DNA of 64,000 nt, taken from contig CAVRKK010000002.1 in NCBI GenBank assembly GCA_963722385.1, positions 704,001 through 768,000 of the forward strand. The letters are read 5' to 3'. Below, piece after piece: positions 30,001-36,000 of the stretch (the first letter of the stretch is position 1; every line of letters begins with the position of its first letter). The position numbers were made by a program. This DNA is from an uncultured bacterium (GTDB lineage: Bacteria > Babelota > Babeliae > Babelales > Babelaceae).

Positions 30001-33000
30001 GGCCCTCCGTAGTGGCCCGGCGCATCCTGCCGGGATGCAAGGACAAATTAGGCGGAGTAGCGCCTAATTTGTCCGAAGTAGCTCTTCTGTTAGAAGAGCG
30101 AAAAACGTAGGCGGAAGGGGCCGCTTGGATGGAGATCCAAAGGAACGGTGGCGTGGGGTGCATGACATAAACATGCGAAGTAACGCATGTTTTGTCCAGA
30201 GCAGCCTTCGAAAGAAGGCGATTAGCGTAGGTCGCAAGCATGCCTGCCGCCCGCCGCGGAGGCGTTTTGTTGTGGCGGCAGCTTTGAAGATACGGTCTAA
30301 CTTAATCGATTCAGCTACTCAAGATCATCATGCTCAATCTTGAGCTCGCCATCCTGATTTATGGTCAAAAAGTCTGGATCACCATCACCATCAATATCCC
30401 CGGCGGCACCTATCTTAAAAGCCTGCCCTTGCGCGAAGGTTCCTTTAAGCGCGCCAGCAGGCGCTTTTAACGCACCCGTTAAAAAATTTTTTTTCTCCGA
30501 GCCTTTACTAAACCCATACGTATATTGTAACTGCCCGTCGGCCTTCCAGCCCAAACTGTGGGGGCCCATTATGTTTGACGTGTAAACGCCATGCTCAGCA
30601 TAATAAGCCTTTTGAGCAATATACAGTGCACGCAATTGCGTATAAGCCTCAGCCCTCTTGGCTTTAGCAAAAAATCGCATAAAATTGGGCAGCGCAATCA
30701 TTGATAAAAAAGCAACAAGCGCAAGAACAATCATAAGCTCAATCAAAGTGAACCCGCTAGCTTTTTCCATATATCTTCCCCAACAAAGCGCATACATATG
30801 CTAAGCATTTATCATAACGTCTTTTAAACACAACGCAATAGGCGGAAAAAGCATTTTTTACGAGATGCGAACTTTGCGAATTTTTATGCAAAAACACAAA
30901 GAACTCAGATTTGGCATGGTATTACGAGGCCGTTAGTCTCGACTTTTGCAAATTTATATGACAATTTGATAATTTAAAAAATGATTCACTGTAAAACTAA
31001 TTTTTCTTTGACATTTTAAGAAATATCGTTACATTATTCAAAGACAAGGTACGTTTTAACCAATACTTAAAGCATGCAGAGACGGAGATATAGCATGATG
31101 GATACCATTAAGCAAACGCTTAGCAAGGGGATTCTGGGTGCAAACAAGCAGCGCACATACACAGAAATAATCGATTTTCTTGATAAACGTTGGTCGATTC
31201 CCCAGGACAAAAACAGCCTAGAGCGCGTAAAGGCTCTTGATGCAGCATTTGACCATCCCTCGCAAAAATTACCGGTTATTCTGGTGGCTGGCACAAATGG
31301 CAAAAGCTTAACGATTCACTTTACTGCTCAATTGCTCAAGACAGAAGGACTTAAGGTGGGAACCTTTTATGCGCCGCACATCTTGACCTATAATGAGCGC
31401 TTTGCCATTAACCATGAAATAATTACCAACAAGAGTTTTGCGGAAATAGCCAATGAGGTTATCAATACCGCGGAGAGCCTGGAGCTCAAGACTGGATCGC
31501 AAGAGCTTTTGACTATTATGGCGCTCGAGTATTTTATTCAGCAAAAAGTAGACGTTGCCGTGCTTGAGGTTGAGCAGGGGGCTCTTTACAATCCTGTTTC
31601 AATCTGCGCGCCTAAAATTGTAACCATTACTCGTGTGACGCCGCATGACATAGCAGTTGACGACAAGAAGCTCGAAGACATGACCCGCGAAACGATGAGC
31701 CTCGTCAAAAAAGGGACCCACGTTATTTCTGGCGATCAGAGCAAGACGCACTTGCATATTATGCAAGAGCTCACGGAGAACTTGCAAGCACAATGGGCAA
31801 TGCCTATTCGTAAACTCGCTGCGCTCGGCTATCCTTTTGAGCAACTGCATGGCCGCTGTGCCGCGTTAGCTGAAAGAACAGCGCAAATTTTCGTTGAAAA
31901 AGTATTAGCGCGCAATGCGACCCTCGTTATGGATAGCATCTTAACCAAGCAAAAAGGGCAGCGCGGTAGGCCGACTATCGAAGAAAAAAGAAGAGCTGAG
32001 CTCTATCCTAAAAAGACTATCGACCAATTCTGGAAAGAAACGGTGAGCGAACTGCCGTGTCGCTTCCAACTGCTTGATAAAGAAAAGCCAAGCATATTGC
32101 TTGATAATGCGCGCAACGTCGATGCATTTAAAAATCTGCTTCTCGGCATACGCCTTCTCCATTACCAACGCCCCCTTAAAGGCCTGTCCATCGTCGTTGC
32201 AGCAGCGCAAAATACCTTACATAGCGAAGAGTTTATCAAGCTGCTCCGCTACTTCTTTAAGAAAACATCGGGACAACTCTTCCTGTGCCCCCTTGAGCAA
32301 CCGCTGCCAGGCGTTAACGAGAATAGTTCATGGAACGTTGAGCAAGTCACCAACGATGTTAAAAGCATGAAGGTAAAGGCGCGCGCCTGCAAGAATTTTG
32401 AGGAAGCATTCGACCTTGCCAAAAAATCAGTCGATGAACGGCATGGCCTTGTTGTTGTTACGGGGTCCCAGTCGATTATTCATCAGTATTGGCAACATAA
32501 AGGGCTCAAAAAATTCTAAAGCCTGCTAATAACTCACTAAAGCCCCATTTCGATGGGGCTTTTTTTATTGCCAAAAATCTAAACTGCTTGGCTGGAAGTG
32601 ATTCTAGTTGCGTGCGCTCCGTGATAACTTTATACTGGTAATTATATATACAAGCCAAGGATACATTATCATGCAAGGGTTTGAACTATTTGAGCACCAT
32701 GCGTGGCGCCCTTTTGAACGTATGGGGTGGACGCACTCATTTTGGACTATCGACATCGATACGATTCTATTTACCTGGCTTGTTCTTTTGCTTATCGTAA
32801 TCCTTGTGCTTTTGGGACGCTGGAGCCTCAGTCGGCCCGATAGTATTCCTGGCTACCTCGCGCAAGCATACGTGCGTAGCTTTGTGAACATGATAACACA
32901 ATCACTCGAGTACTTTAATTATCGCTACTTTGCCTTTATCGCGAGCCTGTTTACGTTCATCTTTCTGTGCAACATACTTATTATTCTACCCTATGGCGAA

Positions 33001-36000
33001 GAGCCGACCAAGAATATCAATACGACGCTCGCGCTGGCTCTCGTATCGTTTGCCTATGTTCAAAAAGAAAGCATTAAGGCACATGGATTGTGGGGCTATA
33101 TCAAAGAATTTTTTAAGCCCTTTTTTATTTTTTTCCCGCTCGAAGTTTTAGGCAAGCTCGCCACCATCGTCTCCCTCTCGTTTCGGCTTTTTGGCAATAT
33201 ATTTGGCGGCTCCATTATTAGCACGATGTGGCACAGCGCTATTGCCGGATCAATACTTGGCCAAATAGCTGGTACGCTTATGGGGGTCAGCATAATTATT
33301 ATGCTCTTTTTTGGCCTGTTTGAGGGTCTTATCCAGGCATTCGTATTTTCAATATTGACCTTAACGTATCTTTCAATGGCTACTGCACAAGAAAGCACTC
33401 ATGAATAGCATTGCCCATTCAGCCACCATTGGTGCGCTTGTTGTTTTACCTGCCCTCGGTGTAGGTATTGGTCAGGGCCTTGTCAACAAGGCGGCGCTCG
33501 AAAGCATTAATCGGCAACCAGGTGCTGAAACAGCCCTGAGGCGCCTCGCCCTCATTTCTATGACTTTAAGCGAAACAGCTGTTTTGCTCGGCGTGGTCAT
33601 GGCGATTCTGTTGTTGGGATCGACGCCGAAGGTTCCCTATAGCATGTTTGCTTACGCCGGCATTGTCAGCGCGCTCGCGCTGCCGGCCTTTATTGTGGGC
33701 ATCATAGCAGCGGGGCCTGGCCGCGCTGCCCTTGAGGCCGCAACGCGCCAACCACTCTTTACGGGCAAGATCACGCAGCTCCTTTTGCTTACCCAAACGG
33801 TTCTTCAGACACCGACAATATTTGGCTTTATTATTGCGCTTATGTTACGCAGCCAGCTCAATACCATTAGCTCATTGAGTGACGCTTTACGCTTGTGTGC
33901 AAGCGGCATGACATTTGGTATAGCATGTATCGGGCCGCTCTTAGGATTGAGCTCCTTTACCAAAAGGGTTTGTCGGATTATCGGTGTCAACCGTGATATC
34001 TATCCACGCTTGCGTACCTTTACGTTTATCAGCCAGGCACTGATTGAGGCGCCCATTGTATTCGCGCTTATGGTGGCGCTTATTTTAGCAATCATAACCC
34101 CGACCGGGGCTTTGGTGGCTGACAGCAGTGCATTTCTTGCGGTAGCCTGCGCGATGGGGCTGAGTACCCTAGGCACCGGCTTGAATTCAGGGCGCGTCGC
34201 TACGCAGGCAGCCAAGCAAATAGGCCTACATCCCGAGCACTACAGTACGCTCGCCAAAATGAGCATGATCTCGCAAACCTTTATTGATACCTCATCAATT
34301 TACGGGCTGCTGCTCTCGCTTATTATTCTGCTCACCCGTTCCTAATTCTTGATACACTTCCTGGCGGTCACGGTCATACGTAAAGCGTATCGATGAGGCA
34401 GCCTGGCTGAGCAGTTCATTTTCATAATCTTTTAATGCCTGCTTAACCCGGTTTTGCCGAATCGTATTTTCGATCTCACTCATACGCTTTTTGTCCTCTT
34501 CCGCATTACCTGTAACCAAGGGAGCCTGTCGCTCAGGGTTTTTCGCTATGATCTTGGTAAGTTCAAAGCCGCCTTGTATCTGTTCAATAAGTACAATTTC
34601 CCCTGGTACTTTTTGTCCAAAAAGCTGCTTATCCTGCGCGAGGTCATGTATATTTACCGTAAAGGGTGCTCCCCAGGCGATGGGCTTGGTAAGCGTTTGC
34701 GTGGCAAGCTCTTTCTCGAAATCAGCATTGTTCTGATTGCTCTCAACGGCCGCGGTGATGAGCGTTATACTTGCTGGCTCGATCGGTGCGTGTTTCTTCC
34801 AATAGTCCTCAATGTGGCTCTGCTCAACTGGCGAGGAGTGGATATCTTGAATGCGGAACCGCTGGAGTTGGTCAATCGTTTCCCGGCGCCGGAGTTGGTC
34901 GCGGCCTTCTGCCAGCGTATAGCCGCGTGACTTAAAAAGCATCTCTAATTGTTCTAAGTCGCAGTTATTGAGCTTTTGCAGCTGCTTAAGGTACTTGTCG
35001 ATATCTTCGTCGGTAATACGCACGTTAAATTTCTGCGCATCGATAAGCATCAGATGCTCAAGCACGACGTCGCGCAAAGTGCGTGGCTCACCCGACAAGA
35101 GCGGTCGCACATCGCGCGTCAAAATAAGCACGGTATCGGCCTGTCCGGCAATCACGGCCCTTACTTGTTCAGGACGTATTTCTGCCGCACCAACACCCAG
35201 CGCTATAAAAGCCGAGCAAAATACCTAAAAATAAAAAATAATAGTTGTACATATGCATATAAAAACCCCTATGAACAAGCAGCGAGAAAGCTCGCTGCTT
35301 GTGTGTTGCTTATGTTAAGCAGCCTGTTGCGGCCCTTTTGCCGGTTTTGGCGCGACGGGCGCAGGAGCTGGCTTTTCTACTGGTTGCTCAGCTGGTTCGG
35401 CCGGTGCAAGTGGTTGTAGTGCCTGTTTGCGTTTGTTCAAGTACTCTTTATTGACCTCGACCTTGTATTTTTTCTTGAGGTCTTCCATCTTCTTCGCGTG
35501 AAGCTCGTTAAACTTTTTGCCTGTAATGATCTGTTTGACGGCGTCTTTTACTTGGCCAACATCAGCATGTTGAGCTTCTTGCTTGCTTGTTATGGCAACG
35601 ACGCGATACTTGCCGTCGGCGCCCTTAACCACGTCGGTCGAAGGGAAAGTCTTTGAGCCGAGGATCTTGTCTTTTACCTGGGTATCAATGGTGCTTTGGG
35701 AGTTGACGAGACCGTAATCAGTAACTTTCTTTTTAGCATCTTTTGCTACCTGATCGATGGAGCTTTGTTTTACTTTTTCAGCAAGCTCTTGGGCTTCCTT
35801 TTCATTAGCGGCTTCGATACCCTTAGCCTTAACCCCGCTTGGTGTTACGAGGAATGGTGGTCTTTGGAAGGCTGGCTCTTTGTCCTTCTTTTCTTCGTAA
35901 TATTTCTTAATTTCGTCGTCGGTCACCGTGATCTCTTTCGCGAGCTCATTTTCGAAGGCGCGTAGTGCGAGGTCGCGGTCGACTGCTTCGTGGACACGCG

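What a model noticed while it worked through the whole genome (the two positions that open the first line are those of the whole stretch)
32671..34345. Four-hairpin (8-TM) F-type ATP synthase c subunit next to atpB
g00983 (C2:737401-738345, 314 aa) is the gene directly after the only a-subunit gene atpB (g00982). It encodes four covalently fused c-subunit hairpins (8 TM helices). The ion-binding carboxylate is kept in hairpins 1, 3 and 4 (E58, E216, D296) but is Gln (Q136) in hairpin 2, so the rotor would carry 3 sites per 4 hairpins. A normal one-hairpin c (g00955) sits in a second locus with b, b', delta and alpha. The fused gene is a hallmark of the whole order Babelales. Fewer carboxylates per ring, and an epsilon without its inhibitory C-terminal domain, fit an enzyme working as an ATP-driven ion pump, as proposed for these ATP/ADP-translocase-dependent bacteria (PMC4776705).
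Evidence so far: Pfam ATP-synt_C hits at 10-71 and 246-309 (pfam.tsv, call 15). MAFFT of the 4 quarters with g00955 aligns all four helix-2 sites. In 48 full-length homologues: E58 48/48, Q136 47/48, E216 48/48, D/E296 43/48. AlphaFold2 model: pLDDT 96, pTM 0.91, long helices in four hairpins. Foldseek vs PDB: the best hit is the two-hairpin c1 of the Acetobacterium woodii F-type ring 4bem_J (E 8e-5), followed by V-type c subunits, each covering about half of the model. tblastn: 253 of 261 Babelales genomes (188 of 189 high quality) have it at E<=1e-25. atpB-c4 adjacency in 5 of 5 relatives checked. Of 73 loci found in GTDB species genomes, all informative names are Dependentiae/TM6/Babeliales (incl. 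Vermiph [...]
(Added by a program. Inside this text positions count along the whole contig: contig position 704,001 is position 1 of the stretch shown here. "Call 12" and the like, gene names such as g00115 and contig names such as C1 are that model's own, and its searches are not shown. The text may have been shortened before it was handed on; [...] marks where a part breaks off. The agent that wrote the report below was given it as the finding of a first reader that could run no searches.)

Follow-up and report, generated by a model that had tools for sequence, protein, structure and literature searches.

The report
Four-hairpin ATP synthase rotor insert
This bacterium, like nearly all of its phylum of host-dependent bacteria, encodes a rotor protein of ATP synthase made of four fused units, probably built once into a ring of normal single units; similar three- to six-unit proteins occur in many unrelated bacteria, whereas the studied example has only two units.

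Summary
Real. Window 33401-34345 encodes four fused c-subunit hairpins (E58/Q136/E216/D296), overlapping the only atpB. It is present in 253 of 261 genomes of the phylum and adjacent to atpB in 60 of 60 loci. A one-hairpin c is always kept too; 5 of 5 checked absences were assembly gaps.

Two first-reader claims fail. Q136 is Glu in 18 of 60 loci, one of the two deepest clades. And the design is not confined to Babelota: 3- to 6-hairpin F-type c genes sit between atpB and a normal Na+-type atpE in Desulfobacterota (78 of 80 loci) and other anaerobes, some with no carboxylate at all.

Best reading: a single-copy insert in a hybrid rotor, the Acetobacterium c1 principle extended; ring membership is not shown. 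Only its two outer faces keep Na+-site ligands, and it keeps the RQP loop that the single c lacks. Special to Babelota: internal carboxylates persist although 0 of 60 internal sites have a complete Na+ motif, so the rotor may carry H+ and Na+. Pump function follows from genome context, not site count.

I found no description in the papers searched; one key review was unreadable. This scan reported the family before on other genomes.

The parts
32671..33408 (+). atpB, F-type subunit a (245 aa from the ATG); essential Arg172, Asn176, Gln222; conserved Glu218
   Evidence: Pfam ATP-synt_A E 9.8e-41; R 59/60, Q 60/60, E218 58/60
33401..34345 (+). four-hairpin subunit c (c4), 314 aa, 8 TM helices; start overlaps the atpB stop by 8 nt
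33401..33619 (+). hairpin 1: Gln25 + Glu58 (codon 33572-33574), canonical acceptor half of a Na+ site; no Tyr donor; loop NRQP
   Evidence: Q/E25 47/60, E58 59/60 (+1 D), Tyr 0/60
33641..33853 (+). hairpin 2: Gln136 (codon 33806-33808; Glu in one clade); invariant RQP cytoplasmic loop (33746-33754)
   Evidence: Q39/E18/M2/G1; R116 60/60, Q117 56/60, P118 60/60
33875..34093 (+). hairpin 3: Glu216 (codon 34046-34048) with Leu183 at the Gln-ligand position; loop GVNR
   Evidence: E 57/60; position 183 L 33, Q 20; N197 55/60
34112..34336 (+). hairpin 4: Asp296 (codon 34286-34288), Ser263; canonical donor half T297..Y301 facing the next unit
   Evidence: D36/E22; Y301 58/60
32539..32562 (+). terminator-like hairpin closing the upstream Mur-ligase-fold gene; atpB-c4 has no atpI in this genome
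   Evidence: 3 found, 3.0 expected by chance, so position only
10058..10309 (+). one-hairpin subunit c (c1), 83 aa; Gln32, Glu65-Thr-Ser, Phe at the Tyr position; loop GKYPE
10316..11166 (+). two b-like genes (119 and 164 aa), assigned by position and length; no Pfam hit, one weak NCBIfam hit (E 0.005)
11150..11701 (+). atpH, delta
   Evidence: Pfam OSCP E 3.7e-23
11705..13210 (+). atpA, alpha; the only alpha (beta-epsilon and gamma lie outside the window, one copy each)
   Evidence: TIGR00962 over cut-off

Best explanation
c4 is a single-copy, asymmetric insert in a hybrid rotor ring of the genome's only F1Fo: one c4 plus about 6-8 one-hairpin c subunits (10-12 hairpins). It descends from a Na+-type operon atpI-B-E(multi)-E(single)-F-F'-H-A-G-D that is intact in other anaerobes and broke between the two c genes in Babelota. 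Its two outer faces keep the ligand halves needed to share ion sites with neighbouring c1 (Gln25/Glu58 at the start, Thr297/Tyr301 at the end). Its interior has diverged into incomplete sites. It carries the invariant RQP loop that c1 lacks, so it probably fixes where gamma/epsilon sit on the ring and seeds ring assembly; lowering ions per ATP is a modest side effect (0-1 site by carboxylate count, up to 3 by strict Na+ motif). In this host-dependent cell the enzyme most likely runs as an ATP-driven ion pump. Shown: gene, fold model, residue patterns, gene order, co-retention, kinship with other inserts. Inferred: ring membership, single copy, ring size, F1 docking, ion, direction.
For: Both c genes are detected in 248 of 261 genomes (tables). 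Five c1-less genomes were checked: four lack alpha too, and in one alpha starts 916 nt from a contig end. In 80 Desulfobacterota loci the order is a-c4/5-c1-b-b' (a in 76, c1 in 78), with gap a->cN median 3 nt, cN->c1 median 67.5, and much stronger Shine-Dalgarno pairing for c1 (-10.7 vs -3.8 kcal/mol). Complete operons with 3-hairpin genes lacking any carboxylate, or 6-hairpin genes with one, exist; such a protein cannot be a working ring alone. Babelota hairpins score best against the same positional class of foreign inserts: first 59/60, internal 60/60 and 49/60, last 46/60; shuffled controls scatter. The a subunits share RLFGNI.GG[SA]II, and an atpI-like ORF precedes atpB in 51 of 60 loci. 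a->c4 gap median -4, 40 of 60 <=0, against a c1 upstream gap of median 79 (47 of 60 measurable). Hairpin-2 loop R/Q/P is 100/93/100% in Babelota and 95/100/100% in Desulfobacterota; c1 has K-x-P in both. Precedent: A. woodii ring of nine single c plus one two-hairpin c (PMC9171764, passages); model hairpins 3-4 superpose on 4bem_J at 1.9 A over 156 residues. Pump context: TLC-family nucleotide translocase genes (4 matches in about three genes), no Rnf/NQR found (genome 93% complete), short epsilon in all 26 of 30 genomes with a hit (57-112 aa open frames), no respiratory chain in seven TM6 genomes (PMC4776705, passages).
Against: No biochemical or structural evidence of a mixed ring. In Babelota Shine-Dalgarno strength does not favour c1 (median -4.7 vs -5.4 for c4). 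In this genome c1 overlaps the upstream gene by 4 nt and b follows after 6 nt, and the c1->b gap is short phylum-wide (median 19.5), so a 6-8-fold excess of c1 is not evident. The two outer faces of c4 would also fit each other in a c4-only ring. The hairpin tree leaves deep relations unresolved. The Na+ motif of c1 is complete in only 34 of 60, and this genome's c1 lacks the Tyr. K/R-N-P loops are common in ordinary c subunits (own knowledge), which weakens the docking argument. AtpI was not found in this genome (best E 0.068). A single Glu-to-Gln in an engineered fused c10 abolished ATP synthesis (cited in PMC8809890, passages), so dead hairpins are not always tolerated.
Confidence: 0.65

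Rival explanations
1. The ring is built mainly or only from c4 (for example three copies, 12 hairpins, 9-12 carboxylates); c1 fills a gap or forms a second, alternative ring for the same a and F1.
For: c4 ends are self-complementary (Y301 58/60 donor; Q/E25 with E58 acceptor 46/60). It keeps three or four carboxylates in 57 of 60. Its ribosome-binding site is no weaker than that of c1. It is the c gene next to atpB. Whole-ring multimers with 6-13 complete hairpins exist among the representatives.
Against: c1 was never shown lost and is more conserved than any c4 hairpin (55% vs 37-49% mean identity). c4 overlaps the single-copy atpB. Its kin with no carboxylate, or one in six hairpins, sit beside a complete Na+-type c1.
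Confidence: 0.13
2. c4 is an assembly scaffold or stator-side accessory, like a rigid template for c1 rings, and is absent from the working rotor.
For: Gene sits with atpI-like and atpB genes. Relatives with three to five consecutive dead hairpins would leave an arc of 100-160 degrees without ion-driven torque, hard to reconcile with synthesis (inference).
Against: Babelota keep E58 (60/60 acidic), E216 (57/60), D/E296 (58/60) and the terminal Tyr donor (58/60), which have no use outside a rotor. In Desulfobacterota an internal Glu is kept almost only together with its full Na+ ligand set (3 of 3; 20 of 24). The two-hairpin A. woodii homologue is in the ring (PDB 4bem).
Confidence: 0.1
3. One reading: the fusion is an adaptation to ATP parasitism whose purpose is to cut carboxylates so that the enzyme is a dedicated pump.
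For: Translocase genes, short epsilon, no Rnf/NQR; Gln136 in 39 of 60.
Against: The Glu136 clade keeps four carboxylates (16 of 60 loci) with the same short epsilon. The insert family is shared with Desulfobacterota and other anaerobes, where losses are larger. Hybrid and V-type rotors make ATP (PMC9171764).
Confidence: 0.1
4. Assembly or annotation artefact, or a decaying duplication.
For: None found.
Against: 307-328 aa in 60 of 60 loci; each hairpin position is one clade; hairpins only 9-33% identical to each other.
Confidence: 0.01

Closest known systems
Acetobacterium woodii (and Clostridium aceticum) subunit c1 / AtpE1 of the F/V-hybrid Na+ F1Fo rotor, PDB 4BEM chain J
   Same: F-type multi-hairpin c encoded beside a normal c; first hairpin with Gln and Glu, second with Gln for Glu; terminal Tyr-bearing donor motif; best hit by sequence (E 6.3e-9) and among natural proteins by structure.
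   Different: Four hairpins, not two; internal Pro-containing motifs; carboxylates kept in incomplete sites; partner c gene in another locus; host-dependent phylum. Ring membership shown for A. woodii, not here.
V-type / A-type rotor subunits (Enterococcus hirae NtpK 2BL2, eukaryotic c, c', c''; Methanocaldococcus three-hairpin and Methanopyrus 13-hairpin K)
   Same: Tandem hairpins with lost carboxylates and the same hairpin-to-hairpin handedness (2bl2_A rmsd 2.3); eukaryotic rings also hold single-copy odd subunits (own knowledge).
   Different: c4 scores with F-type c models (NCBIfam 102 bits vs 36 for the best K model) and belongs to an enzyme with F-type a, delta, alpha, beta, gamma, epsilon.
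Engineered single-chain c10 of Bacillus PS3 (PMC8809890)
   Same: Shows covalently joined F-type hairpins can work and that Glu-to-Asp or Glu-to-Gln in one hairpin changes activity.
   Different: Artificial, identical repeats, whole ring.
3-6-hairpin F-type c genes of Desulfobacterota and other anaerobes (seen here; no paper found in the searches named in the full report)
   Same: Same position after atpB, same first/internal/last hairpin classes, invariant RQP in hairpin 2, Tyr donor in the last hairpin, same a-subunit motif.
   Different: Followed directly by c1; internal hairpins mostly Gln; a Glu comes with a full Na+ set; in 5 of 5 genomes checked a second c gene exists but only one gamma.

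Membership tests
F-type ATP synthase subunit c (PF00137) | Helical hairpin with profile match over cut-off | tested here: met
   92.6 bits vs cut-off 24, four stretches; three of four hairpins over cut-off singly
F-type ATP synthase subunit c (PF00137) | Carboxylate in mid outer helix | tested here: met
   E58, E216, D296 present; Q136 in hairpin 2
F-type ATP synthase subunit c (PF00137) | F-type partners in the genome | tested here: met
   a, delta, alpha, beta, gamma, epsilon found; b genes by position only
Hybrid-rotor insert (A. woodii c1 type) | Multi-hairpin c and single-hairpin c genes for one F1Fo | tested here: met
   Both in 248 of 261 genomes; one F1 in G000
Hybrid-rotor insert (A. 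woodii c1 type) | Two hairpins, one site | tested here: not met
   Four hairpins, 2-4 carboxylates
Hybrid-rotor insert (A. woodii c1 type) | Both c genes in one operon after atpI-atpB | tested here: not met
   Split in Babelota: 23 kb apart in G000, different loci in all pairs inspected; met in the Desulfobacterota kin
Hybrid-rotor insert (A. woodii c1 type) | Co-assembly in one ring, one copy | not testable with these tools
   Needs native MS or cryo-EM
Na+-translocating rotor | [QE]..E with [ST][STQ]xxY from the preceding hairpin (rule in PMC11738941 supplement, PMC2359735) | tested here: inconclusive
   c1 complete in 34/60, not in G000 (Phe for Tyr); c4 internal sites 0/60; outer faces: acceptor 46/60, donor strict 20/60, loose 52/60
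V/A-type subunit K | Best match to K models, with A/V-type partners | tested here: not met
   F-type models score higher; the three PF00006 hits are alpha, beta and a weak third (28-bit class, not examined)
N-ATPase | Single operon beta-epsilon-X-X-a-c-(b delta)-alpha-gamma | tested here: not met
   Four separate loci, separate delta; alpha and beta pass the standard, not the 'alternate', cut-offs

The most novel reading that the evidence does not exclude
A site-specialised dual-ion rotor. The c1 subunits and the c1/c4 junctions carry Na+, while the internal carboxylates of c4 (E216, D296, and E136 in one clade), kept without a complete Na+ ligand set in any of 60 loci, carry H+. One ATP-driven turn would then export both ions in a ratio hard-wired by one gene, with the invariant RQP loop of hairpin 2 locking those proton sites to a fixed phase of the F1 cycle. 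The two clades reach an incomplete site 3 by opposite routes (Thr137 without Gln183 in 38 loci; Gln183 with Ala137 in 17), as expected if incompleteness is selected.
Probability: 0.2. Interest if true: 0.85.

Novelty: new variant of a known kind. Interest (0 to 1): 0.6.

Why it matters
Ring composition sets the ion-to-ATP ratio, the central number of cellular bioenergetics. The studied F-type hybrid rotor has a two-hairpin insert with one missing site. A natural series of 3-6-hairpin inserts, with zero to four carboxylates, fixed in a whole phylum and common in sulfate reducers, gives ready-made tests of how long an ion-free arc a rotor can cross, why hybrid rings exist, whether gamma/epsilon bind the ring in a fixed register, and whether one ring can hold sites of two ion specificities. 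It also changes the Na+/H+ and ion/ATP annotation of these genomes.

Tried and rejected
Complex prediction of four c1 with one c4: never ran, the queue stayed full; no verdict. RNA evidence: no RNA holder listed. ESM Atlas: three clusters of 228-323 aa named subunit c, commonest phylum Thermodesulfobacteriota; used only as a lead; no structure search possible. VIA-align top rows are designed helical repeats (Z 21-15), taken as general helical likeness. Hairpin tree: each Babelota hairpin is one clade, but the order of duplications and orthology with the Desulfobacterota four-hairpin form are unresolved on 72 columns; Babelota hairpin 3 has no preferred counterpart, so the fourth hairpin may have been added twice. 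a-subunit tree (39 of 60 loci, thinned, 5 outgroup rows): Gln clade 100/99, Glu clade 91/72, split at the root, so loss versus regain of Glu136 cannot be told. Shine-Dalgarno test for stoichiometry: positive in Desulfobacterota, null in Babelota. Ion type from the membrane pyrophosphatase: K+-dependent Ala, D-x-x-E-S gate, Asn at 16.46, compatible with Na+, Na+/H+ or H+ classes; no SSF symporter found: inconclusive. Gene conversion of one odd c1 (G078) from hairpin 3: not supported, it is still nearest to other c1. A mixed 3/4-hairpin alignment was too variable for the locus search; the narrower four-hairpin set was used, so named loci are biased to Desulfobacterota. Matthies 2014 and Brandt and Mueller 2015 are not held.

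
Full report
OBSERVATION. The ORF at window 33401-34345 (314 aa) follows atpB (32671-33408) with an 8-nt overlap. 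Pfam ATP-synt_C matches four stretches and NCBIfam prefers F-type over V-type models. By register with the one-hairpin c at 10058-10309, the key positions are E58, Q136, E216 and D296. AlphaFold2 on 48 homologues gives four hairpins (pLDDT 96.3, pTM 0.91). The nearest natural structure is the two-hairpin c1 of Acetobacterium woodii (Foldseek E 7.6e-5; 1.9 A over 156 residues; designed helical repeats rank higher in that list). The hairpins are 9-33% identical to each other, so the fusion is old. The genome has one alpha, one beta, one gamma and an 82-aa epsilon, in four loci.

DISTRIBUTION IN THE PHYLUM. All 261 genomes held for the phylum are one order. c4 has best E <=1e-25 in 253 (188 of 189 high-quality; table), c1 has best E <=2e-12 in 254, both in 248. 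Five of the seven genomes without c1 were checked (the other two had no match to either gene): four also lack alpha, and in one alpha begins 916 nt from a contig end. I read 60 c4 loci: the 30 best-scoring and 30 chosen across families, 20 of 21 families in all, and 60 c1 loci. atpB is adjacent in 60 of 60, c4 is 307-328 aa and c1 78-88 aa.

CORRECTION 1: TWO CLADES. Position 136 is Q in 39, E in 18, M in 2 and G in 1 of 60, and Q 54, E 14, M 3 in 71 representatives at 50% identity. E136 marks families f3, f5, f14, f15, f17, f18 and f20. In an a-subunit tree (39 of the 60 loci plus 5 outgroup rows) the Gln and Glu groups split at the root (100/99 and 91/72). Carboxylates per c4: three in 41, four in 16, two in 3. 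So '3 of 4' is not a property of the order.

ION SITES. In c rings a site takes Glu and Gln from one hairpin, and Ser/Thr and Tyr from the preceding one (PMC2359735, passages; PMC11738941, whole supplement). The model has the same handedness as E. hirae K, so the rule applies. Hairpin 1 is a canonical acceptor (46 of 60) with no Tyr (0 of 60). Hairpin 4 alone keeps the Tyr (58 of 60). None of the three internal sites is complete in any of 60 loci. c1 has the full motif in 34 of 60; this genome's c1 has Phe for Tyr. Only the two outer faces of c4 are therefore standard. Yet E216 (57 of 60) and D/E296 (58 of 60) persist. At site 3 the clades are incomplete in opposite ways: Thr137 without Gln183 in 38 loci, Ala137 with Gln183 in 17.

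CORRECTION 2: A WIDER FAMILY. A c1 profile searched for longer proteins returned 102 hits of 155-485 aa with mostly 2-6 hairpins, named Desulfosarcina, Deltaproteobacteria, Omnitrophica, Latescibacter and Planctomycetes where named. Of the best 150 representatives among 1.84 billion, 71 are Babelota-type four-hairpin proteins. The rest include 37 three-hairpin, 15 four-hairpin, 14 two-hairpin and 4 five-hairpin forms (some fragments), and five 6-13-hairpin multimers with mostly intact sites. In the best 80 of 356 confirmed GTDB loci, nearly all Desulfobacterota, atpB precedes the gene in 76 and a complete Na+-type c1 follows in 78, with atpI before and b, b' after in the loci examined. Carboxylate patterns there are EQQQ 52, EQQE 23, others 5. 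In 21 metagenome loci, 11 hold a three-hairpin gene with no carboxylate, and four show the whole order I-B-E(n)-E-F-F'-H-A-G-D. The Babelota loci [I-B-c4], [c1-b'-b-delta-alpha], [gamma], [beta-epsilon] are pieces of that order. An atpI-like hydrophobic ORF family precedes atpB in 51 of 60 loci (half-split profile test: 24 of 25 above 30 bits; weak Pfam hits in 2 of 5 genomes; profile match to Desulfobacterota AtpI only 28% probability) but was not found in this genome. Babelota hairpins match the first, internal and last classes of the foreign inserts by position (59, 60, 49 and 46 of 60; shuffles scatter). A tree of single hairpins does not resolve deeper relations.

MECHANISM. I favour one c4 in a ring otherwise made of c1 (0.65). 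An insert with no carboxylate cannot be a working ring alone. The insert gene is tight against single-copy atpB in both lineages (median -4 and +3 nt), while c1 has its own leader (median 79 and 67.5 nt). A. woodii offers the precedent of nine single c plus one double c (PMC9171764, passages; PMC7911925, passages). Against this, Shine-Dalgarno strength favours c1 only in Desulfobacterota, not in Babelota, and this genome's c1 overlaps its upstream gene. What the insert is for: hairpin 2 has an invariant RQP loop in both lineages, while c1 has K-x-P. RQP is the gamma/epsilon contact in E. coli (recalled), so a fixed F1 foot and an assembly seed are my preferred roles; this is inference. The effect on gearing is small by carboxylate count (for 11 hairpins 3.33 or 3.67 ions per ATP) and larger if only full Na+ sites count (2.67, ring size assumed). 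Direction: nucleotide translocase genes, no Rnf/NQR, short epsilon and no respiratory chain in TM6 (PMC4776705, passages) favour ATP-driven pumping. Site loss itself does not, since hybrid and V-type rotors make ATP near 90 mV (PMC9171764), although one Glu-to-Gln stopped synthesis in an engineered H+ ring (PMC8809890, passages). In Desulfobacterota an internal Glu comes with a full Na+ set (3 of 3 and 20 of 24); in Babelota it never does. That contrast is the basis of the dual-ion reading (0.2). ProAD already annotates two-hairpin c subunits with one H+ and one Na+ site (supplement legend).

LITERATURE. Ten full-text searches of open-access papers and bioRxiv (the last concerned pyrophosphatases) showed no description of F-type c subunits with more than two hairpins or of this gene in TM6. 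A 2026 preprint on rotary ATPase evolution has no occurrence of Babel-, Dependentiae or TM6 and treats multi-hairpin forms as A-type (10.64898/2026.10.01.756066, passages; supplements closed). ProAD (PMC11738941, parts 1-2 of 3 and the supplement) grouped c/K subunits by hairpin number, so these genes are probably in its tables, which I could not see. Brandt and Mueller 2015, a survey of hybrid rotors, and Matthies 2014 were seen only as references and could already list longer forms. Passages of PMC7793690, PMC3639240 and PMC5150537 were also read.

EARLIER NOTES OF THIS SCAN. After forming my reading I found that the scan has reported the Babelota gene (both E/Q/E/D and all-acid forms) and the 3-6-hairpin family on other genomes. 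These are unchecked AI notes and not independent support.

VERDICT. Real; a new variant of the known hybrid rotor; interest 0.6.

Noticed in passing
G261-G265 (genomes of L143, L154, L205, L177, L200): Each of five Desulfobacterota genomes has the Na+-type Fo-only operon (I-a-c4/5-c1-b-b') plus a second c gene elsewhere, but only one gamma: two membrane motors may share one F1.
   Followed up: partly
P0155, P0159, P0220, P0221, P0229: 6- to 13-hairpin c multimers with nearly all sites intact; a different class from the inserts, possibly whole or half rings.
   Followed up: no
window 32671-33408, residue 218: Subunit a has a Glu four residues before the conserved Gln in 58 of 60 Babelota, where the Desulfobacterota Na+-type a has Val or Ile; a possible proton relay.
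   Followed up: partly
L121:1495-1749 and L097 (G078): c1 has an internal-hairpin-like motif (Met for Gln32, Pro at +2, Phe for Tyr) while the same genome's c4 has lost the acids of hairpins 3 and 4.
   Followed up: partly
G000:C2:884038-885957 (L040): Membrane pyrophosphatase with the K+-dependent Ala and a D-x-x-E-S gate; may pump Na+ rather than H+ as assumed for TM6.
   Followed up: partly
L218-L243 and L007:2514-2762; L039:1492-2403: Epsilon lacks the C-terminal helices in all 26 hits and has Gly-Asn/Ser where an acidic ring contact is recalled for E. coli; gamma also looks divergent in its ring-contact region.
   Followed up: partly
window 31074-32519: Mur-ligase-fold (FolC-like) gene with a basic insert rich in Arg, Lys and Gly near residue 290-315.
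   Followed up: no
window 5372-7435 (-): Three tandem, signal-peptide-bearing ORFs of 215-243 aa that look paralogous; no Pfam family.
   Followed up: partly
window 7435-9090 (-) and 26578-28209 (-): Two Cys-containing secreted-looking ORFs of about 550 aa ending in Phe/Tyr, possibly outer-membrane proteins; no Pfam family.
   Followed up: partly
window 13311-13920 (+): HicB-like gene with a small basic upstream ORF directly after atpA: probable HicAB toxin-antitoxin pair.
   Followed up: partly
window 9219-10061 (+): Deoxynucleoside kinase overlaps the c1 start by 4 nt; the only overlap among 47 measured c1 leaders.
   Followed up: partly
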